63,033 bases of DNA from Nemertoderma westbladi (Eukaryota > Animalia > Xenacoelomorpha), in contig JAUCBJ010000595.1 of assembly GCA_032718475.1 (NCBI GenBank), forward strand, positions 1-63,033, in the 5' to 3' direction. A program made the position numbers and the translations under genes. Below, in pieces: positions 4,659 through 58,600 of the stretch (positions are counted from its first letter, which is position 1; each line of letters opens with the position of its first letter). The notes below the pieces were generated by a model. It worked only from the letters and a program-made list of their open reading frames with translations, was not told the origin of the DNA and did no database searches.

Positions 4659-7600
4659 CTAAAAGAAACACCAAACTAACTATTATATACAGGAAGTGGT
4701 TCAACCCAGCGTCTTGTGTGATTGATAGACTAAAAGAAACACCAAACTAACTATTATATACAGGAAGTGGTTCAACCCAGCGTCTTGTGTGATTGATAGA
4801 CTAAAAGAAACATCAAACTAACTATTATATTATCGTAAGTATCTTCCAGGAAGTGGTTCAACCCAGCGTCTTGTGTGATTGATAGACTAAAAGAATCACC
4901 AAACTAACTATTATATACAGGAAGTGGTTTAACCCAGCGTCTTGTGTGATTGATAGACTAAAAGAAACACCAAACTAACTATTATATACAGGAAGTGGTT
5001 CAACCCAGCGTCTTGTGTGATTGATAGACTAAAAGAAACATCAAACTAACTATTATATTATCGTAAGTATCTTCCAGGAAGTGGTTCAACCCAGCGTCTT
5101 GTGTGATTGATAGACTAAAAGAAACATCAAACTAATTATTATATTATCGTAAGTATCTTCCAGGAAGTGGTTCAACCCAGCGTCTTGTGTGATTGATAGA
5201 CTAAAAGAAACACCAAACTAACTATTATATTATCGTAAGTATCTTCCAGGAAGTGGTTCAACCCAGCGTCTTGTGTGATTGATAGACTAAAAGAAACACC
5301 AAACTAACTATTATATACAGGAAGTGGTTCAACCCAGCGTCTTGTGTGATTGATAGACTAAAAGAAACACCAAACTAACTATTATATACAGGAAGTGGTT
5401 CAACCCAGCGTCTTGTGTGATTGATAGACTAAAAGAAACATCAAACTAACTATTATATCATAGTAACAAGAATATCAATGTATTACATATTAAATTCTGG
5501 AATATAGTATTTGTGCTCTTATAAAAAAACTCGTGCTCCAATCCTTTTATAACATAAAAGGTAACCTTTTATAACCTGCGTTCTAGAATATAATACCTAG
5601 GATGCAAAATACATTACCTGCGTTCTAGAATATATTACCTGCGTTCTAGAATATATTACCTGCGTTCTAGAATATATTACCTGCGTTCTAGAATATATTA
5701 CCTGCGTTCTAGAATATATTACCTGCGTTCTTGAATATATTACCTGCGTTCTAGAATATATTACCTGCGTTCTATAATATATCACCAGCGTTCTAGAATA
5801 TATTACCTGCATTCTTGAATATATTACCTACGATATAGAATATATTACCTGCGTTCTATAATATATTACCTGCGTTCTAGAATATATTACCTGCGTTCTA
5901 GAATATATTACCTGCGATATAGAATATATTACCTGCGTTCTATAATATATTACCTGCGTTCTATAATATATTACCTGCGTTCTAGAATATATTACCTGCG
6001 TTCTAGAATATAATACCTGCGTTCTAGAATATATTACCTGCGTTCTAGAATATATTACCTGCGTTCTTCAATATATTACCTGCGTTCTAGAATATATTAC
6101 CTGCGTTCTAGAATATATTACCTGCGTTCTAGAATATATTACCTGCGTTCTAGAATATATTACCTGCGTTCTAGAATATATTATCTGCGTTCTAGAATAT
6201 ATTACCTGCGTTCTAGAATATATTACCTGCGTTCTTCAATATATTACCTGCGTTCTAGAATATATTACCTGCGTTCTAGAATATATTACCTGCGTTCTAG
6301 AATATATTACCTGCGTTCTAGAATATATTACCTGCGTTCTAGAATATATTACCTGCGTTCTAGAATATATTACCTGCGTTCTAGAATATATTACCTGCGT
6401 TCTAGAATATATTACCTGCGTTCTTCAATATATTACCTGCGTTCTTGAATATATTACCTGCGTTCTAGAATATATTACCTGCGTTCTATAATATATTACC
6501 TGCCTTTCTAGAATATATTACCTGCGTTCTAGAAGATATTACCTGCGTTCTAGAATATATTATCTGCGTTCTAGAATATATTACCTGCGTTCTAGAATAT
6601 ATTACCTGCGATATAGAATATATTACCTGCGTTCTAGAATATATTACCTGCGTTCTAGAATATATTACCTGCGTTCTTGAATATATTACCTGCGATATAG
6701 AATATATTACCTGCGTTCTAGAATATATTACCTGCGTTCTAGAATATATTACCTGCGTTCTAGAATATATTACCTGCGTTCTAGAATATATTACCTGCGT
6801 TCTAGAATATATTACCTGCGTTCTTGAATATATTACCTGCGTTCTATAATATATTACCTGCGTTCTAGAATATATTACCTGCGTTCTTGAATATATTACC
6901 TGCGTTCTAGAACATATTACCTGCATTCTATAATATATCACCAGCGTTCTAGAATATATTACCTGCGTTCTAGAATATATTACCTGCGTTCTAGAATATA
7001 TTACCTGCGTTCTATAATATATTACCTGCGTTCTATAATATATTACCTGCGTTCTAGAAGATATTACCTGCGTTCTAGAATATATTACCTGCGTTCTAGA
7101 ATATATTACCTGCGTTCTATAATATATTACCTGCGTTCTAGAAGATATTACCTGCATTCTAGAATATATTACCTGCGTTCTAGAATATATTACCTGCGTT
7201 CTATAATATATTACCTGGGTTCTAGAATATATTACCTGCGTTCTAGAATATATTACCTGCGTTCTAGAATATATTACCTGCGTTCTAGAATAGATTACCT
7301 GCGTTCTAGAATATATTACCTGTGTTCTAAAATATATTACATGTGTTCTAGAATATATTACCTGCGTTCTAGAATATATTACCTGCGTTCTAGAATATAT
7401 TACCTGCGTTCTAGAATATATTACCTGCGTTCTAGAATATATTACATGTGTTCTAGAATATATTACATGTGTTCTAGAATATATTACCTGCGTTCTAGAA
7501 TATATTACCTGCGTTCTAGAATATATTACCTGCGTTCTAGAATATATTACCTGCGTTCTAGAATATATTACCTGCGTTCTGGAGCAACAAGCCAATCGCT

Positions 7601-46600: not shown

Positions 46601-49600
46601 AAAACAATCAGTTAGAATAATCACAGTAATTTATCACTAAATTGAGACAAGAATAGCCAACATGCAGCAGTCACTGGTATATGGTGAAATTATGGGCGAA
46701 AAGGGTTGATAACCTTCACCATGCTGACACCGGAATATGGTAAAACCAAGCGCAAAATATGTAGGCTGATAACATACACCAAAACATATTGGATGCAGGG
46801 AAAAGAACAAGTAGTGCGATTTGAAAAAACATAATTATATAATTATATACGAAACGTTCCGGATCGAAATAATTATGTTTTTTCAAGTCGCACTACTTGT
46901 TTTTTTCTGTTTTAAATTACGATATCCTCCTGGGATCACCATAACTTCGATATTGGATGCAGTCACCGGAATATAGTAAAAATGATGGGCGAAAAATGTT
47001 GATAACCTTCACCATGCAGTCACCAGAATATTGTGAAATTATGGGCGAAAAGGGGATAACCTTCACCATGCAGTCACCGGAATATGGTAAAAATGATGGG
47101 CGAAAAATGTTGATAACCTTCACCATGCAGTCACCAGAATATTGTGAAATTATGGGCGAAAAGGGGATAACCTTCACCATGCAGTCACCAGAATATTGTG
47201 AAATTATGGGCGAAAAGGGGATAACCTTCACCATGCAGTCACCGGAATATTGTGAAATTATGGGCGAAAAGGGGATAACCTTCACCATGCAGTCACCAGA
47301 ATATTGTGAAATTATGGGCGAAAAGGGGATAACCTTCACCATGCAGTCACCAGAATATGTCAGTTGTTTCTCAGCTATTATTGGACTGCCGACACCCGCC
47401 GACTCACTTTTCCCATATTTAGATCGTCAAACTGATCTGGGAGATCTGAATACTCCCTGGTGGATCCGTACATGTTCATATAACAGGGTCCGAAGGTAGG
47501 GAGGAATCCATCGTCCCCAGGTACCGATATCGAGGACAGATGGATGAAACATGTCCCTATTGTATCGTCCTTGGACATTTGGTCCCTATAGTGACATAAA
47601 CATCAAATCATTGGATATAGCTGTTTCCTAGCAACTCTAATAACAATATCCAATTTTCACAGAAGAAAACGTTTCAGACGATGTTTATATATTTCAATTA
47701 TGCTGATAAAACAAACCGTAAATATGTATTCCAAAAGTGTCGACATTGTCAGTGGCACTCACAATAAAATGAATTAATAAAACTTGTGTTTAACACCCTT
47801 TGATTAACTTTAACATGATTAACAATACTACTACTACTACTATCGGCATGCTGCATTGCAGCTGCATTATATAGATTACGTAAACATTAAGAATGCTGTG
47901 ACGGAGAGTCGATAAAATCGCGCCGACACAACTCTATCACCCATGACATTTGCTAGATCATCCGCATCATCAAGTTCAGTGTCCTTTAAGATACGTCTCA
48001 AGAAAGTCATGGGCTGTCCACCATGCTTATTCACTCCATGAGGCTGCCAAAGTACAAGATTATGCACTGGCTGGTCCTCACAGCGAAAGCAATGTCCTGC
48101 AAAGCGGGGGCGGATCTCTTCAAGTGTCAAGCTAGATGAGACGAATGAAACACGTAAGGTTGTATAGAGTTTGATTGGATATGTATTCATTGTACTTGAC
48201 ACAATGAACCCGGAGTAGTAATCTTGTGAAAGTGGCATCCAGAGATTTGGTATACTCTGCGCAGTTAGAGCCCAGCATGGACTCCCATATAAGAGTAATG
48301 GGTCTACTACAAGCAGATTAAACCCCTAGAATAATAAAAATTATCGACCCGGGCCGAAAATATACGAGACGGTTGATTGGTGAAGTCCGGGGTGGTCATA
48401 ACGGACGGACCGTGTTACCTTGCAGATGATGTGAATACTCTGGGTATATCGGAGCGAATTTAATCAAAATATCAAGAAACCACGTGAACGTTTGGGTCTA
48501 ACCCGAGCAATATTTACAACCATAAAAGTTGATTAAATCAAATTACAGTTGGTAACAGCAACAGAGGCCTAATCATAGACCTCTATAAGCAAACAATAGT
48601 TGTTAGTAAATAAGCGACATAAATGATCAACCCCAGAATGTAAATATTTCCAGATTAACTTTTATCCGGGTACCTTTCCTTTGTTCATGTTGTCGAACTC
48701 TTTACTATCCCCCTGCTCCCTGGGGGATCCGTAGAGGTTTACGAAGCAGGGCCCGTACGTCGGGGTGTACCCTTCTGTCTCATCGGTACTCGAGACTTGA
48801 GAGATATATATAGTGGCCGTCGCTACGGTATCATCACGACCTGCTCTGTCCCTATAACAATGCGTTTAATGCTCAAAGTAACTTACCGGTAATTTGATAA
48901 TTAATCAATCTGTTAAGACTATGTATTATTATTAATTACAATAATTCGTTTTAATTATTCAACCTAGCCGCCTAAGAGGATATGAAACCCTATTTTTTTT
49001 TATTTAGTGTGTACTGTAGGCCTTTGTCCGCGATCTTATTTATACATTTAGATAATGAACATGCCCTCACACTCAATAGGAGTCAGCGAATATGTACACT
49101 ACAATCAAAAACGAGGATGTCCTTTTATAAGGGCGCTGTCGATATTTGGGTTTTTACTAAAATATAGTTTATTGAAAATAAATTAGCTAAAGATTGAATG
49201 CTGAACTAACCAGTCCAATACACTGAGTTTAATCCTGTCGCACATGGACGGGAACTTTAACCCTAATCGCAGCTCTTGGCTCCATTCCGGCGTGTAACTC
49301 GACGTTATAACTTTCGTCTTGGCTTTTTTTCCCGCGAAATGGAATACCATATATGGATCTACAAGGTCTTTATTATCCTCTCCTACCCCGAGTATCTTCT
49401 TAACGCCTTGGAACGTACCGGTGTCCACTGCGAAAGGAACAACAACGGGTTTCAGTGCCAGAAAATATTAAATATGTCTCCAACTACAGTATCATGGATA
49501 TGATCTCCTAACTTTACATAGTACTAATAACTCTATAGCCGACAATTAAATTTATCTCTTGAGTCAGATAACTAACTCTAGTCAGTACACTAACACTAGC

Positions 49601-52600
49601 CAGTACACTAACTATAGCCAGTACACTAACTCTAGCCAGTACACTAACTCTAGACAGTACACTAACTCTAGTCAGAACACTAACTCTAGTCAGTACACTA
49701 ACACTAGCCAGTACACTAACTATAGCCAGTACACTAACTCTAGCCAGTACACTAACTCTAGACAGTACACTAACTCTAGTCAGAACACTAACTCTAGTCA
49801 GTACACTAACTCTAGTCAGTACACTAACTCTAGCCAGTACACTAACTCTAGTCAGTACACTAACTCTAGTCAGTACACTAACTCAAGTCAGTACACTAAC
49901 TCTAGCCAGTACACTAACTCTAGTCAGTACACTAACTCTAGCCAGTACACTAACTCAAGTCAGTACACTAACTCTAGTCAGTACACTAACTATAGCCAGT
50001 ACACTAACTCTAGCCAGTACACTAACTCTAGACAGTACACTAACTCTAGTCAGAACACTAACTCTAGTCAGTACACTAACTCTAGTCAGTACACTAACTC
50101 TAGCCAGTACACTAACTCTAGTCAGTGCACTAACTCTAGTCAGTACACTAACTCAAGTCAGTACACTAACTCTAGCCAGTACACCAACTCTAGTCAGTAC
50201 ACTAACTCTAGCCAGTACACTAACTCAAGTCAGTACACTAACTCTAGTCAGTACACTAACTCTAGCCAGTACACTAACTTTAGTCAGTACACTAACTCTA
50301 GTCAGTACACTAACTCCCGAAGTACACTAACTCTAGTCAGTACACTAACTCTAGCCAGTACACTAACTCTAGTCAGTACAATAACTATAGCCAGTACACT
50401 AACTCTAGTCAGTACACTAACTCTAGTCAGTACACGAACTATAGCCAGTACACTAACTCTAGTACACTAATTCTAGCCAGTACACTAACTCTAGTCAGTA
50501 CACTAACTCTAGCCAGTACACTAACTCTAGTCAGTACAATAACTATAGCCAGTACACTAACTCTAGCCAGTAGACTAACTCTAGTCAGTACACTAACTAT
50601 GGCCAGTACACTAACTCTAGTCAGTACACTAACTATAGCCAGTACACTAACTCTAGTACACTAATTCTAGCCAGTACACTAACTCTAGTCAGTACACTAA
50701 CTCTAGCCAGTACACTAACTCTAGCCAGTACACTAATTCTAGTCAGTACACTAACTCTAGTCAGTACACTAACTCTTGCTAGTACACTAACTCTAGCCAG
50801 TACACTAACTCTAGCCAGTACACTAACTCTAGTCAGTACACTAACTCTAGTCAGTACACTAACTCTAGTCAGTACACTAACTCTAGTCAGTACACTAACT
50901 CTAGTCAGTACACTAACTCTAGCCGGTACACTAACTCTAGCCAGTACACTAACTCTAGTCAGTACACTAACTCTAGTCAGTACACTAACTCTAGCCGGTA
51001 CACCAACTCTAGCCAGTACACTAACTCTAGCCGGTACACTAACTCTAGTCAGTACACTAACTCTAGCCAGTACACTAACTCTAGTCAGTACACTAACTCT
51101 AGTCAGTACACTAACTCTAGTCAGTACACTAACTCTAGTCAGTACACTAACTCTAGTCAGTACACTAACTCTAGCCGGTACTCTAACTCTAGCCAGTACA
51201 CTAACTCTAGTCAGTACACTAACTCTAGCCAGTACACTAACTCTAGCCGGTACACTAACTCTAGCCAGTACACTAACTCTAGTCAGTACACTAACGCTAG
51301 CCAGTACACTAACTCTAGTCAGTACACTAACTCTAGTCAGTACACTAACTCTAGTCAGTACACTAACTCTAGCCGGTACACTAACTCCAGTCAGTACACT
51401 AACTCTAGCCGGTACTCTAACTCTAGTCAGTACACTAACTCTAGTCAGTACACTAACTCTAGTCAGTACACTAACTCTAGTCAGTACACTAACTCTAGTC
51501 AGAACACTAACTCTAGCCAGTACACTAACTCTAGTCAGTACACTAACTCTAGTCAGTACACTAACTCTAGCCAGTACACTAACTCTAGCCAGTACACTAA
51601 CTCTAGCTAGTACACTAACTCTAGCCAGTACACTAACTCTAGCCAGTACACTAACTCCAGTCAGTACACTAACTCTAGCCGGTACACTAACTCTAGTCAG
51701 TACACTAACTCTAGTCAGTACACTAACTCTAGTCAGTACACTAACTCTAGTCAGTACACTAACTCTAGTCAGAACACTAACTCTAGCCAGTACATTAACT
51801 CTAGTCAGTACACTAACTCTAGTCAGTACACTAACTCTAGCCAGTACACTAACTCCAGTCAGTACACCAACTCTAGTCAGTACACTAACTCTAGCCGGTA
51901 CACTAACTCTAGCCAGTACACTAACTCTAGTCAGTACACTAACTCTAGTCAGTACACTAACTCTAGCCGGTACACTAACTCTAGCCAGTACACTAACTCT
52001 AGTCAGTACACTAACTCTAGTCAGTACACTAACTCTAGCCAGTACACTAACTCTAGTCAGTACACTAACTCGAGCCAGTACACTAACTCTAGTCAGTACA
52101 CTAACTCTAGTCAGTACACTAACTCTAGCCGGTACACTAACTCTAGCCAGTACACTAACTCTAGTCAGTACACTAACTCTAGTCAGTACACTAACTCTAG
52201 CCAGTACACTAACTCTAGTCAGTACACTAACTCTAGCCAGTACACTAACTCTAGTCAGTACACTAACTCTAGCCGGTACACTAACTCTAGCCAGTACACT
52301 AACTGTAGCCGGTACACTAACTCTAGTCAGTACACTAACTCTAGTCAGTACACTAACTCTAGCCAGTACACTAACTCTAGTCAGTACACTAACTCTAGTC
52401 AGTACACTAACTCTAGTCAGTACACTAACTCAAGTCAGTACACTAACTCTAGTCAGTACACTAACTCTAGTCAGAACACTAACTCTAGCCAGTACACTAA
52501 CTCTAGTCAGTACACTAACTCTAGTCAGTACACTAACTCTAGCCAGTACACTAACTCCAGTCAGTACACCAACTCTAGTCAGTACACTAACTCTAGCCGG

Positions 52601-55600
52601 TACACTAACTCTAGCCAGTACACTAACTCTAGTCAGTACACTAACTCTAGTCAGTACACTAACTCTAGCCGGTACACTAACTCTAGCCAGTACACTAACT
52701 CTATTCAGTACACTAACTCTAGTCAGTACACTAACTCTAGCCAGTACACAAACTCTAGTCAGTACACTAACTCTAGCCAGTACACTAACTCTAGTCAGTA
52801 CACTAACTCTAGTCAGTACACTAACTCTAGCCGGTACACTAACTCTAGCCAGTACACTAACTCTAGTCAGTACACTAACTCTAGTCAGTACACTAACTCT
52901 AGCCAGTACACTAACTCTAGTCAGTACACTAACTCTAGCCAGTACACTAACTCTAGTCAGTACACTAACTCTAGCCGGTACACTAACTCTAGCCAGTACA
53001 CTAACTCTAGTCAGTACACTAACTCTAGCCGGTACACTAACTCTAGTCAGTACACTAACTCTAGTCAGTACACTAACTCTAGCCAGTACACTAACTCTAG
53101 TCAGTACACTAACTCTAGTCAGTACACTAACTCTAGTCAGTACACCAACTCTAGTCAGTAAAACTAACTCTAGCCAGTGCACTAACTCTAGTCAGTAGGC
53201 CTACACTAACTCTGAGGTATATCTTCCCCTCTGTAGGTTTTCAACCAGAATGTCGCCGGCTGTAACTGGGTTCCCGCCGGCGAGAGAAGATTCGACTCTA
53301 TATCGTCGTCTTCGTCGTCGCCGTCCTTATCCTGGGGGGCCTCGTCCCCGGGTCCAAGTACGATCGCCGTGAACTTAAGGTATCCCTTCACCCCTCCCAT
53401 CGGGTCGTCGGGGTCGGTAAGTAGAAGCCATCGGCGTAGAAACGCCCGTTTCGGTTCGTCGTAAATCATACCGACGTCCAACTTAAAGGAGCCGAGAAGC
53501 GAATCGGAACGGAGTTTACGGGAGTTAAACAGCTGGAAGTTGATGATGTCGTCGAAGAGTTCAGTGGGGAGTTTGTTAAAGTTGAAGAAAAATATCTAAA
53601 GATTAAAATAATTTCTGGTAAACAAAGCAGCGTGCGAATGAATATAGCAACTTTTTAATTGCGGAATTTAGAGCGAGACTTCCAATATTTACTTAGTCTA
53701 AACGTTCCACTCTATAGATCGTAACTTATCCATTATATAGTTGGCATACCTCGTTCCATATAGGCTGGGACGTTGACTTTTTCACTTTCGTTTGTTTATT
53801 TTCTTTCCCTATGTTTACTTTCACTACGGGACTGAGCTCCCCACCCGGCAGTTGACGTGCCTCGAAAATTTTAACTCGAACCTGAAATTAGATGAAATTA
53901 AATGAATTACCAAATCTGTAAATATAAATGATTTTAGAATTGTGGGGAATCACTCAGTTGGGAATCAGGTCAGTTGGGAATCACAATCACTCAGTTCCGC
54001 TTTATTTCTACCCCCTGGTAGTCCGTCGCTTTATCGGTTAGTGTCCGATTGCTTTCTACCCACCTAAAAGTCCGTCGGTTTCTCCGGTAGTTTTCCTCGC
54101 GTTTCCGTGCGGACTTCCCACCACCCTGGGTGCCATCCATCCCTCTACCAACCTGGAAGTCCGTCGGTTTCTCCGGTAGTTTGGCTCGCTCGCGTTTCCG
54201 TGCAGCCTTCCCACCACCCTGGGTGCCATCCATCCCTCTACCAACCTGGAAGTCTGTCGGTTTCTCCGGTAGTTTTGCTCGCTCGCGTTTCCGTGCGGCC
54301 TTCCCACCACCCTGGGTGCCATCCATCCCTCTACCAACCTGGAAGTCCGTCGGTTTCTCCGGTAGTTTGGCTCGCTCGCGTTTCCGTGCGGCCTTCCCAC
54401 CACCCAGGGTTCCATCCATCCCTCTACCAACCTGGAAGTCCGTCGGTTTCTCCGGTAGTTTGGCTCGCTCGCGTTTCCGTGCAGCCTTCCCACCACCCTG
54501 GGTGCCATCCATCCCTCTACCAACCTGGAAGTCTGTCGGTTTCTCCGGTAGTTTTGCTCGCTCGCGTTTCCGTGCGGCCTTCCCACCACCCTGGGTGCCA
54601 TCCATCCCTCTACCAACCTGGAAGTCCGTCGGTTTCTCCGGTAGTTTGGCTCGCTCGCGTTTCCGTGCGGCCTTCCCACCACCCTGGGTGCCATCCATCC
54701 CTCTACCAACCTGGAAGTCCGTCGGTTTCTCCGGTAGTTTGGCTCGCTCGCGTTTCCGTGCGGCCTTCCCACCACCCTGGGTTCCATCCATCCCTCTACC
54801 AACCTGGAAATCCGTCGGTTTCTCCGGTAGTTTGGCTCGCTCGCGTTTCCGTGCTGCCTTCCCACCACCCTGGGTTCCATCCATCCCTCTACCAACCTGG
54901 AGGTCTGTCGGTTCTCCGGTAGTTTGGCTCGCTCGCGTTTCCGTGCAGCCTTCCCACCACCCTGGGTTCTATCCATCCCACTACCAACCTGGAAGTCCGT
55001 CGGTTCCTCCGGCAGTTTTGCTCGCTCGCGTTTCCATGCGGCCTTCCCACCACCCTGGGTGCCATCCATCCCTCTACCAACCTGGAAATCCGTCGGTTCC
55101 TCCGGTAGTTTTGCTCGCTCGCGTTTCCGTGCAGCCTTCCCACCACCCTGGGTTCTATCCATCCCACTACCAACCTGGAAGTCCGTCGGTTCCTCCGGCA
55201 GTTTTGCTCGCTCGCGTTTCCGTGCGGCCTTCCCACCACCCTGGGTGCCATCCATCCCTCTACCAACCTGGAAATCCGTCGGTTCCTCCGGTAGTTTTGC
55301 TCGCTCGCGTTTCCGTGCAGCCTTCCCACCACCCTGGGTGCCATCCATCCCTCTACCCACCTGGAAATCCGTCGGTTTCTCCGGTAGTTTTGCTCGCTCG
55401 CGTTTCCGTGCAGCCTTCCCACCACCCAGGGTTCCATCCATCCCACTACCAACCTGGAAGTCCGTCGGTTTCTCCGGTAGTTTTCCTCGCGTTTCCGTGC
55501 GGACTTCCCACCACCTTGGGTGCCATCCATCCCTCTACCCACCTGGAAATCCGTCGGTTTCTCCGGTAGTTTGGCTCGCTCGCGTTTCCGTGCAGCCTTC

Positions 55601-58600
55601 CCACCACCCTGGGTTCCATCCATCCCACTACCAACCTGGAAGTCCGTCGGTTTCTCCGGTAGTTTGGCTCGCTCGCGTTTCCGTGCAGCCTTCCCACCAC
55701 CTTGGGTTCCATCCATTCCTCTACCCACCTGGAAATCCGTCGGTTTCTCCGGTAGTTTGGCTCGCTCGCGTTTCCGTGCAGCCTTCCCACCACCTTGGGT
55801 GCCATCCATCCCTCTACCCACCTGGAAATCCGTCGGTTTCTCCGGTAGTTTGGCTCGCTCGCGTTTCCGTGCGGCCTTCCCACCACCCTGGGTGCCATCC
55901 ATCCCTCTACCAACCTGGAAGTCCGTCGGTTTCTCCGGTAGTTTGGCTCGCTCGCGTTTCCGTGCGGCCTTCCCACCACCCTGGGTTCCATCCATCCCTC
56001 TACCAACCTGGAAATCCGTCGGTTTCTCCGGTAGTTTGGCTCGCTCGCGTTTCCGTGCTGCCTTCCCACCACCCTGGGTTCCATCCATCCCTCTACCCAC
56101 CTGGAAATCCGTCGGTTTCTCCGGTAGTTTGGCTCGCTCGCGTTTCCGTGCAGCCTTCCCACCACCTTGGGTGCCATCCATCCCTCTACCCACCTGGAAA
56201 TCCGTCGGTTTCTCCGGTAGTTTGGCTCGCTCGCGTTTCCGTGCAGCCTTACCACCACCTTGGGTGCCATCCATCCCTCTACCCACCTGGAAATCCGTCG
56301 GTTTCTCCGGTAGTTTGGCTCGCTCGCGTTTCCGTGCAGCCTTCCCACCACCTTGGGTGCCATCCATCCCACTACCAACCTGGAAGTCCGTCGGTTTCTC
56401 CGGTAGTTTGGCTCGCTCGCGTTTCCGTGCAGCCTTCCCACCACCCAGGGTTCCATCCATCCCAGTACCAACCTGGAAGTCCGTCGGTTTCTCCGGTAGT
56501 TTGGCTCGCTCGCGTTTCCGTGCAGCCTTCCCACCACCCAGGGTTCCATCCATCCCACTACCAACCTGGAAGTCCGTCGGTTTCTCAGGTAGTTTGGCTC
56601 GCTCGCGTTTCCGTGCAGCCTTCCCACCACCCAGGGTTCCATCCATCCCAGTACCAACCTGGAAGTCCGTCGGTTTCTCCGGTAGTTTGGCTCGCTCGCG
56701 TTTCCGTGCAGCCTTCCCACCACCCAGGGTTCCATCCATCCCACTACCAACCTGGAAGTCCGTCGGTTTCTCCGGTAGTTTGGCTCGCTCGCGTTTCCGT
56801 GCAGCCTTCCCACCACCCAGGGTTCCATCCATCCCAGTACCAACCTGGAAGTCCGTCGGTTTCTCCGGTAGTTTGGCTCGCTCGCGTTTCCGTGCAGCCT
56901 TCCCACCACCCAGGGTTCCATCCATCCCAGTACCAACCTGGAAGTCCGTCGGTTTCTCCGGTAGTTTGGCTCGCTCGCGTTTCCGTGCAGCCTTCCCACC
57001 ACCCAGGGTTCCATCCATCCCAGTACCAACCTGGAAGTCCGTCGGTTTCTCCGGTAGTTTGGCTCGCTCGCGTTTCCGTGCAGCCTTCCCACCACCCAGG
57101 GTTCCATCCATCCCACTACCAACCTGGAAGTCCGTCGGTTTCTCCGGTAGTTTGGCTCGCTCGCGTTTCCGTGCAGCCTTCCCACCACCCAGGGTTCCAT
57201 CCATCCCAGTACCAACCTGGAAGTCCGTCGGTTTCTCCGGTAGTTTGGCTCGCTCGCGTTTCCGTGCAGCCTTCCCACCACCCAGGGTTCCATCCATCCC
57301 AGTACCAACCTGGAAGTCCGTCGGTTTCTCCGGTAGTTTGGCTCGCTCGCGTTTCCGTGCAGCCTTCCCACCACCCAGGGTTCCATCCATCCCACTACCA
57401 ACCTGGAAGTCCGTCGGTTTCTCCGGTAGTTTGGCTCGCTCGCGTTTCCGTGCGGCCTTCCCACCACCCTGGGTTCCTTCCATCCCACCGATTCCTTCAT
57501 CTCTGTCCTTCTCTGGTCCACCTTCTTCACCCAACTCTGGTGCATCGGCCTCATCTAAACAATAAACGAATACGATACGATCCGCACATCCTAATTTTAC
57601 TCAATCTCTTAAATAATTCAAAATTGAAAAAAAAAGCAAAAAAATATATCGGTGTATATATCGACAATGGGTTGGAAAAAATTAACATTACAGTGTATAT
57701 AAATAAAATGTCTCATGCTATTATTTCCCAATCACGACAGATTGACCATTAAAGCAAAATTTATCTTCTAAAAACAACATTACCTTATCATAACTACTTT
57801 GGCGAGTTACTACTACTGTAGTAAGTTTTCACAAAATGCATCCCTCTCCAAGGGAAAATCAAAGCAAATAAAATTTTATTACTACTTACTACTGTATTGA
57901 AAGACCCTGATAACCTCGAAAAATGCAGGCTCAAGGATTGTCTCACACCAAAAATATCTACTGGTACTCAATTAATTGCGCACACTGTCTAAATCACAAA
58001 CTTTATAATATGCTCTCAGGGTAAATAAAATACGCAACGCAATTTTTCAACCAATAGCTTCCGTAACCGCAGTTAATTAATCACATTATTATTTAGTTCA
58101 TGGGCCAGCCGGCATCATATGGGATACTTTTTGGTAACCTAACCACCTGGTACTGATGACACGCCGTAAACACACATGGCACGTATTTGTTTTGTGTTAA
58201 AGTAAAATTTTAGCTGTGCACGTTAGACTTGTCTACGTGAGAGAGTCGGATGTTTAAGCAACAGTAATAGGTACTGTAGATCAAAGTGTTCCTGAACATT
58301 GGCGACAATCATCTGTTGCGATGGAAACAGCGCTCCCTACCTGTGCGTGCAGCCTCCGAAATTGACTTGGGTGTTTCATACAATAAAACAATTACAATTA
58401 CACCATGTCCCGAAAAATAGTGTCTTCAAATATATTCTATGAATTTTTTACATAATCGTCTCCAGCAAAATTAGGTTAGGTGTGGCTTAAATGAAAATTG
58501 TCATAAAATTTGACCATAAAATGAGGATTCCGATGATGTAAGCTTAATTGTAATGGAAACTTTATGTACAAATTGTTTATTTTCAACAGTAAATTTATTA

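What the first reader, a model, noticed from the sequence alone, without database searches (positions are those of the whole stretch)
54055..57488. In-frame 93-bp donor array with synonymous-biased variation: a possibly translated, length-tunable linker before C2B
Seen: each unit ends in TTCCAG|GT, so 20 additional donors (57309 down to 55542) are in frame and stop-free, each adding 31 aa (up to 620 aa, Gly/Lys/Arg-rich). Variants across the array are mostly silent (GCC/GCT/GCA, GAC/GAT, GGA/GGC, CAG/CAA, GTT/GTG, CCG/CCT, GGG/GGT, ACG/ACA, CTA/CTG). The in-frame block shows only Q/L and S/T/R replacements, whereas K>E, G>R, R>W and F>L changes occur only beyond the first frameshift (54900-55300). 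Inference: the proximal block is or was translated under purifying selection, giving a ladder of ferlin isoforms with a polybasic extension that could bind anionic membranes.
Basis: partly seen in the sequence, partly recalled or inferred. Interest (0 to 1): 0.85.

Follow-up and report, generated by a model that had tools for sequence, protein, structure and literature searches.

The report
Repeated splice donor in ferlin intron
In an invertebrate ferlin gene, a 93-base piece holding the end of an exon and its splice signal is repeated 36 more times, and the copies differ mostly at silent codon positions, but the copies are likely intron rather than protein and likely got that silent bias by swapping DNA with the real exon, so this is a known kind of repeat rather than a protein-length dial.

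Summary
The sequence description holds. Exon 57554-57403 of a dysferlin/myoferlin-like gene is followed by 36 copies of its last ~84 nt plus 9 nt of intron; copies 1-20 are in frame and stop-free. The silent excess is real: 13 of 23 variants against 6.6 expected, P=0.004. The first donor gives an intact ferlin with the conserved junction. Three more donor-carrying arrays in this gene hit stops on read-through. The copies are recombined mosaics. In toy simulations, selection on the real exon alone plus exon-array crossing-over reproduced the excess in one setting (0.56-0.57; control 0.23) and fell short in others (0.26-0.49). No RNA could be examined, so donor use is untested. This is a 'mirage'/F7-type donor minisatellite, where the first donor is used, sometimes also the next two. 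The scan noted the same pattern on other DNA (e1-7142826). A translated ladder is unlikely (~8%).

The parts
57403..57554 (-). Ferlin exon (152 nt): acidic/Gly-rich then basic linker ending in [10 protein letters not shown] just before C2B; its last ~84 nt are unit 0 of the array; authentic donor CAG|GTTGGT at 57403/57402
   Evidence: same DFQ end in Lingula P0002 and Saccoglossus P0005
56380..57402 (-). Units 1-11: near-identical, probably young expansion (2 variable sites), in frame, all E>D and Q>L against the exon
55543..56379 (-). Units 12-20: in frame, mosaic, 8 silent : 1 replacement variant
54897..55542 (-). Units 21-27: out of frame after a 4-nt deletion in unit 21; hold K>E, G>R, R>W, F>L, A>S and a 1-nt deletion in unit 27; 8 silent : 8 replacement
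54153..54896 (-). Units 28-35: out of frame and behind a stop at 54889, yet 6 silent : 1 replacement; unit 29 (like unit 16) is one base from the exon over positions 10-93
54064..54152 (-). Unit 36: terminal, same 4-nt deletion as unit 21, ends TTTTAG|GTGGGT and runs into unique intron (likely the original intron start)
54006..54044 (-). Older, decayed copy of the same exon end (24 of the last 30 nt match) with a dead donor (CAG|GG): an earlier duplication of the same junction
53750..53881 (-). Next exon, start of the C2B domain (phase 0 acceptor)
   Evidence: Pfam C2 E=1e-8
49562..53214 (-). 18-bp array after exon 53595-53211; 167 copies of the donor motif AGA|GTTAGT; read-through stops after one codon
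45393..45963 (-). 34-bp donor array (about 17 copies of CAG|GTGAGT), not a multiple of 3; read-through stops after 23 codons
5570..7580 (-). 21-bp donor array (about 95 copies of CAG|GTAATA; GT intact in 92 of 94); read-through stops after one codon

Best explanation
The array is a tandem repeat of a ferlin exon end plus its splice donor, and it is likely an intronic minisatellite in which splicing likely uses the first donor, with the silent bias likely inherited through crossing-over between the repeats and the real exon rather than from translation of the repeats. Shown: the unit is ~84 nt of exon plus 9 nt of intron start; the first donor gives an intact ferlin frame; the units are recombined mosaics; three other donors of the gene carry the same kind of array. 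Inferred: a duplication across the junction seeded the array and unequal crossing-over expanded it. Because unit 0 is the working exon, misaligned crossovers carry exon alleles (mostly silent differences) into the array and expose array variants to selection whenever a repeat becomes the exon end. Simulation needs the array to have stayed short for a long time with frequent exchange, then to have expanded recently. Inferred from human and lancelet precedent: downstream donors stay mostly silent.
For: First-donor gene model: 767 aa without stops across the window; junction matches Lingula P0002 residues 190-206 and 204-256. 4 of 11 tandem arrays in the window carry a donor in each unit, 3 with the called array starting inside the exon (P>=3 = 0.014, P>=4 = 0.001); the other three stop on read-through, so this gene must already ignore about 280 repeated donors, some matching consensus better than CAG|GTTGGT. 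Out-of-frame units 28-35 are 6:1 silent. 39 of 105 informative site pairs show all four gametes; 24 unit types among 36; the exon's nearest copies are units 16 and 29, not unit 1. Common variants are denser in the intron-derived part (3 of 7 free positions, two of them replacements) than in the exon-derived part (6 of 84; p=0.02; position 9 may be a breakpoint difference). In the untranslatable 34-mer, exon+donor positions are invariant (0 of 15) and intron positions vary (6 of 19; p=0.024). Simulation with selection on the exon only: silent fraction 0.57 (8 of 17 comparable runs >=0.6) against 0.23 with the exon excluded from exchange (0 of 9); observed 12 of 20. Precedent: F7, lamin B2 and PDGF use only the first donor (PMC1557585); lancelet mirages do not disturb splicing (PMC3087553).
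Against: Donor use was not observed in this species. The simulation result depends on its settings: no excess with N=100 and 37 units (0.26-0.29), 0.35 at higher exchange, none with local misalignment (0.26, no proximal-distal gradient), 0.33-0.49 for short-array histories at lower exchange, and 0.39 when only the last 16 codons are selected (1 of 20 runs >=0.6). Models with translated units give a similar excess (0.47-0.50), so one haplotype cannot separate the models. The 21-mer array shows no conservation of its exon-derived part. In human 6-16 and CBS the next two donors are also used.
Confidence: 0.63

Rival explanations
1. Leaky near donors: the first donor dominates, but the second (and perhaps third) is used at a low level, making minor isoforms with +31 or +62 residues. 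Selection on those nearest copies, spread by array turnover, adds to the silent bias.
For: Human 6-16 and CBS use two further donors (PMC1557585 introduction). Units are in frame and stop-free, so such transcripts would escape decay. Adding selection on unit 1 raised the simulated silent fraction from 0.41 to 0.50 (5 of 21 runs >=0.6). All donors are equally weak, CAG|GTTGGT or CAG|GTGGGT.
Against: Units 1-11 differ from the exon by two replacements and vary 1:1. The other three arrays of the gene would give stops if they leaked.
Confidence: 0.22
2. One reading: up to 20 downstream donors are used, giving a translated ladder of basic linker extensions kept under purifying selection and tuning membrane binding.
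For: [quoted passage not shown]
Against: Equal silent bias in out-of-frame units 28-35. It would need exons of up to about 2 kb chosen over an identical upstream donor, against the oriented-scanning result (PMC1557585). Sibling arrays cannot be translated. The basic patch is already in the native exon and in homologs; each unit adds only net +3.
Confidence: 0.08
3. Former coding repeat: the array was once exonic (last donor used) as a 31-residue protein repeat, gathered silent variants then, and has since been cut back to the first donor, with frameshifts and a stop accumulating after release.
For: Variants shared between blocks are 6 silent: 2 replacement, while distal private ones are 4:7, close to neutral. 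The likely original intron start follows unit 36.
Against: The same shared/private split follows from exon exchange before a recent expansion. None of the 7 homologs read (of 22 hits) has such a repeat at this place. An identical upstream donor would have had to be skipped.
Confidence: 0.07

Closest known systems
Human F7 intron 7 37-bp VNTR, with lamin B2 (100 bp), PDGF (81 bp), CBS (31 bp) and 6-16 minisatellites (Borensztajn et al. 2006, PMC1557585; abstract, synopsis, introduction and 12 passages read; the other four genes seen only as cited there)
   Same: First unit spans the exon-intron border, so the donor is repeated with identical sequence down the intron.
   Different: Here the unit is about 90% exon (84 of 93 nt; F7: 4 of 37), in frame, has 36 extra copies and shows a silent-site bias. 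Donor use is measured in those genes and untested here.
Lancelet 'mirage' minisatellites, Adh3 and globins BflGb6/BflGb9 (Ebner et al. 2010, PMC3087553, passages read; Canestro et al. 2002 not held, seen only as cited)
   Same: Tandem copies of an exon-intron boundary in a marine-type invertebrate gene, several per gene, concerted evolution with an excluded end unit.
   Different: Larger copy number. The passages read do not mention synonymous bias (0 occurrences of 'synonymous'). Length polymorphism between alleles is untested here.
Alternatively spliced vertebrate ferlin C2A-C2B linkers (bioRxiv 10.1101/2025.03.15.643383; abstract, introduction, methods read)
   Same: Same protein region; disordered and basic; splicing alters otoferlin's membrane binding.
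   Different: The parts read describe alternative linker segments, not repeated donors. No C2A exon was found in this window.

Membership tests
Donor-reiterating minisatellite ('mirage', F7 type) | Head-to-tail repeat whose first unit spans an exon-intron border | tested here: met
   Array 54055-57486 begins 83 nt inside exon 57554-57403
Donor-reiterating minisatellite ('mirage', F7 type) | Splice donor repeated in each unit | tested here: met
   35 of 36 units end CAG|GT, the last TAG|GT
Donor-reiterating minisatellite ('mirage', F7 type) | Turnover by unequal exchange among units | tested here: met
   39 of 105 site pairs show four gametes; homogeneous block 1-11; deletion shared by units 21 and 36
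Donor-reiterating minisatellite ('mirage', F7 type) | mRNA spliced at the first (or nearest) donors | not testable with these tools
   No RNA reads could be laid; only the intact first-donor frame and the conserved junction were seen
Donor-reiterating minisatellite ('mirage', F7 type) | Copy number varies between alleles | not testable with these tools
   One haplotype only; no genome held
Translated coding tandem repeat under purifying selection | Silent excess among unit variants | tested here: met
   13 of 23 against 6.6 expected, P=0.004
Translated coding tandem repeat under purifying selection | Excess confined to units that can be translated | tested here: not met
   Out-of-frame units 28-35 6:1; in-frame against out-of-frame p=0.19; private variants p=0.12
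Translated coding tandem repeat under purifying selection | Units present in mature mRNA and protein | not testable with these tools
Dysferlin/myoferlin-type ferlin | C2B, FerI, C2C and DysF-region exons in order | tested here: met
   Pfam C2, FerI, C2; tblastn of three ferlins across the window; best identities 64% to Lingula and Convolutriloba proteins. The two 26-aa DysF-region exons gave no Pfam hit and rest on tblastn.

The most novel reading that the evidence does not exclude
An animal ferlin whose membrane-binding N-terminal linker is dialled in 31-residue steps, up to +620 residues, by choosing among 21 identical in-frame splice donors, with the range set by an inherited repeat number.
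Probability: 0.08. Interest if true: 0.72.

Novelty: new member of a known kind. Interest (0 to 1): 0.22.

Why it matters
As it most likely stands, it is a large example of a known repeat type. The useful point is a caution and a small testable idea: a silent-site excess in an intronic copy of an exon does not show translation, because exchange with the working exon can import the mark of selection, so such arrays may archive the exon's alleles. A search for papers holding 'minisatellite', 'exon-intron boundary', 'synonymous' and 'unequal crossing' listed none (searches listed nothing on this point by title or abstract start); the library lacks most subscription papers. If the ladder were real, it would break the first-donor rule and give a new way to tune a membrane-repair protein.

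Tried and rejected
No RNA holder listed for window 53205-53900, so no reads were laid; this is no evidence either way. No own genome held. No match to a unit motif in metagenome contigs. No near-identical protein among 22 ferlin hits (best 64%), so species and public gene model remain unknown. No Pfam family on exon+units 1-20. The scan held no earlier notes for this genome or this protein. Simulations that did not reproduce the excess: and the relaxed model; one search took 5 samples per seed, so its counts are not independent. Copy number of silent against replacement variants did not differ (Mann-Whitney p=0.26), although exon exchange would tend to predict it. An alignment of the exon with 8 homologs was uninformative. 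Another reading frame as the source of the bias was rejected: only the ferlin frame is clearly significant, and the antisense frame-2 signal (P=0.04) shares its third positions. Sequencing error as the source of the frameshifts is unlikely for the 4-nt deletion, which recurs with linked variants in units 21 and 36; the 1-nt deletion in unit 27 could be an error.
Full report
Setting. The minus strand carries a dysferlin/myoferlin-type ferlin gene of an unidentified invertebrate: 22 ferlin hits, best identity 64% to Lingula and Convolutriloba proteins. tblastn with three homologs places exons from 57554 down to 7572. Using the first GT after each exon gives 767-776 residues without a stop in three exon combinations, with Pfam C2, FerI and C2 in order. 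The exon at 57554-57403 ends in [10 protein letters not shown] and the exon at 53881 opens C2B, as in Lingula. No C2A exon was found in the window. No genome is held.

Anatomy. The array (54055-57486, period 93) is the exon's last ~84 nt plus 9 nt of intron start, repeated 36 more times. Units 1-20 keep frame without stops. Unit 21 loses 4 nt, unit 27 loses 1 nt and unit 36 loses the same 4 nt as unit 21; a stop at 54889 closes the first frame. After unit 36 lies unique intron and an older decayed copy of the same exon end (24 of 30 nt) with a dead donor, so this junction was duplicated at least twice. All donors are CAG|GTTGGT (29 of 37), CAG|GTGGGT (7) or TAG|GTGGGT (1).

The silent excess. 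Counting each distinct substitution once against the majority unit, 13 of 23 are silent, against 6.6 expected given the base changes seen (P=0.004); no other frame is as high. The excess does not follow translatability. Units 1-20 give 9:3, units 21-36 give 10:9 (Fisher p=0.19), units 28-35, out of frame and behind a stop, give 6:1 (P=0.003), and units 1-11, next to the exon, give 1:1 and share two replacements against the exon. Shared variants are 6:2, private proximal 3:1, private distal 4:7. An indel-free run of 20 has probability 0.08-0.19 by chance.

Gene-wide context. Of 11 tandem arrays in the window, 4 repeat a donor: this 93-mer, an 18-mer after 53211, a 34-mer after 45955 and a 21-mer after 7572. 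Three begin inside the exon by the repeat finder's call; the 18-mer's called start is 14 nt downstream but 167 units carry the donor motif (P>=3 0.014, P>=4 0.001). Read-through of the other three meets a stop after 1, 23 and 1 codons. An intact gene therefore implies that splicing here passes over roughly 280 repeated donors (inference). One in-frame, stop-free array among four is unremarkable, since the exon-derived part is stop-free by origin. In the 34-mer, which cannot be translated, exon and donor positions are invariant (0 of 15) while intron positions vary (6 of 19; p=0.024; exon positions alone p=0.16). The 21-mer shows no such pattern.

Mechanism for the bias. The units are recombined: 39 of 105 informative pairs show four gametes, there are 24 types among 36, and the exon's nearest copies are units 16 and 29. 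Since unit 0 is the working exon, misaligned crossovers move exon alleles into the array and put repeats into the exon. I tested this in toy forward simulations with selection only on unit 0; the observed value for the exon-derived part is 12 of 20 silent. With a long short-array phase, then expansion, the silent fraction rose with exchange rate: 0.33-0.49 (non-independent samples), 0.41 (1 of 28 comparable runs >=0.6) and 0.57 (8 of 17), against 0.22-0.28 when the exon was kept out of exchange. It failed or fell short with constant 37-unit arrays (0.26-0.29; 0.35), with local misalignment (0.26 and no gradient) and when only the last 16 codons were selected (0.39). Models with translated units gave 0.47-0.50. 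So translation is not needed to get the excess, but the exchange model needs particular conditions and one haplotype cannot separate the two. Common variants are denser in the 9 intron-derived bases than in the exon-derived part (3 of 7 free positions against 6 of 84, p=0.02), which fits tethering to the exon better than translation of the whole unit.

What is known. Borensztajn et al. (PMC1557585; abstract, synopsis, introduction and passages) describe human minisatellites whose first unit spans an exon end. F7, lamin B2 and PDGF use only the first donor; 6-16 and CBS also use the next two; F7 constructs show the most upstream working donor is chosen. Lancelet 'mirages' (PMC3087553, passages) are the invertebrate counterpart and appear not to disturb splicing. 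The basic patch is already in the native exon and in homologs, and each unit adds net +3 charge. The scan's own unchecked notes record similar arrays in other genomes, one with silent-biased copies and RNA keeping only the first (e1-7142826); they were leads, not evidence.

Verdict. Observation confirmed; interpretation partly supported. Most likely an intronic donor minisatellite with first-donor splicing and an inherited silent bias (0.63); leak at the nearest donors 0.22; translated ladder 0.08; former coding repeat 0.07. Donor use is untested. New member of a known kind; interest 0.22.

Noticed in passing
window 48851-48674 and 47585-47408 (-): Two 178-nt paralogous exons for the end of C2C; either alone keeps the frame, the model with both members of both duplicated pairs breaks it, so they are likely mutually exclusive.
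   Followed up: partly
window 9126-9047 and 7651-7572 (-): Two 80-nt paralogous exons in the DysF region, likely mutually exclusive; the second is followed by the 21-bp donor array.
   Followed up: partly
window 42416-42390 (-): 27-nt exon with good splice signals that can be added without breaking the frame; possible cassette microexon.
   Followed up: partly
window 60174-60102 and 58984-58936 (-): Two short ATG-starting segments ending in phase-1 donors that join exon 57554 in frame; possible alternative first exons giving ferlin without C2A. Each is preceded by TTCTAGAA, which resembles a heat-shock element (label recalled, not tested).
   Followed up: partly
window 5570-7580: The 21-bp donor array holds 69 of the window's 73 TTCTAGAA motifs.
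   Followed up: no
window 7789-58914: Intronic arrays sit at the donor side: 9 of the 11 arrays start within 180 nt of a donor (inside the exon or just downstream), and none touches an acceptor (nearest 135 nt).
   Followed up: partly
window 11439-42314: A 31-kb intron made almost wholly of a 67-bp satellite with higher-order blocks (about 6.26 kb repeats), starting 76 nt after the 27-nt exon.
   Followed up: no
P0004 (Branchiostoma) and P0005 (Saccoglossus): Public ferlin models contain short peptide repeats inside C2 domains, which look like junction arrays annotated as coding; their DNA was not checked.
   Followed up: no
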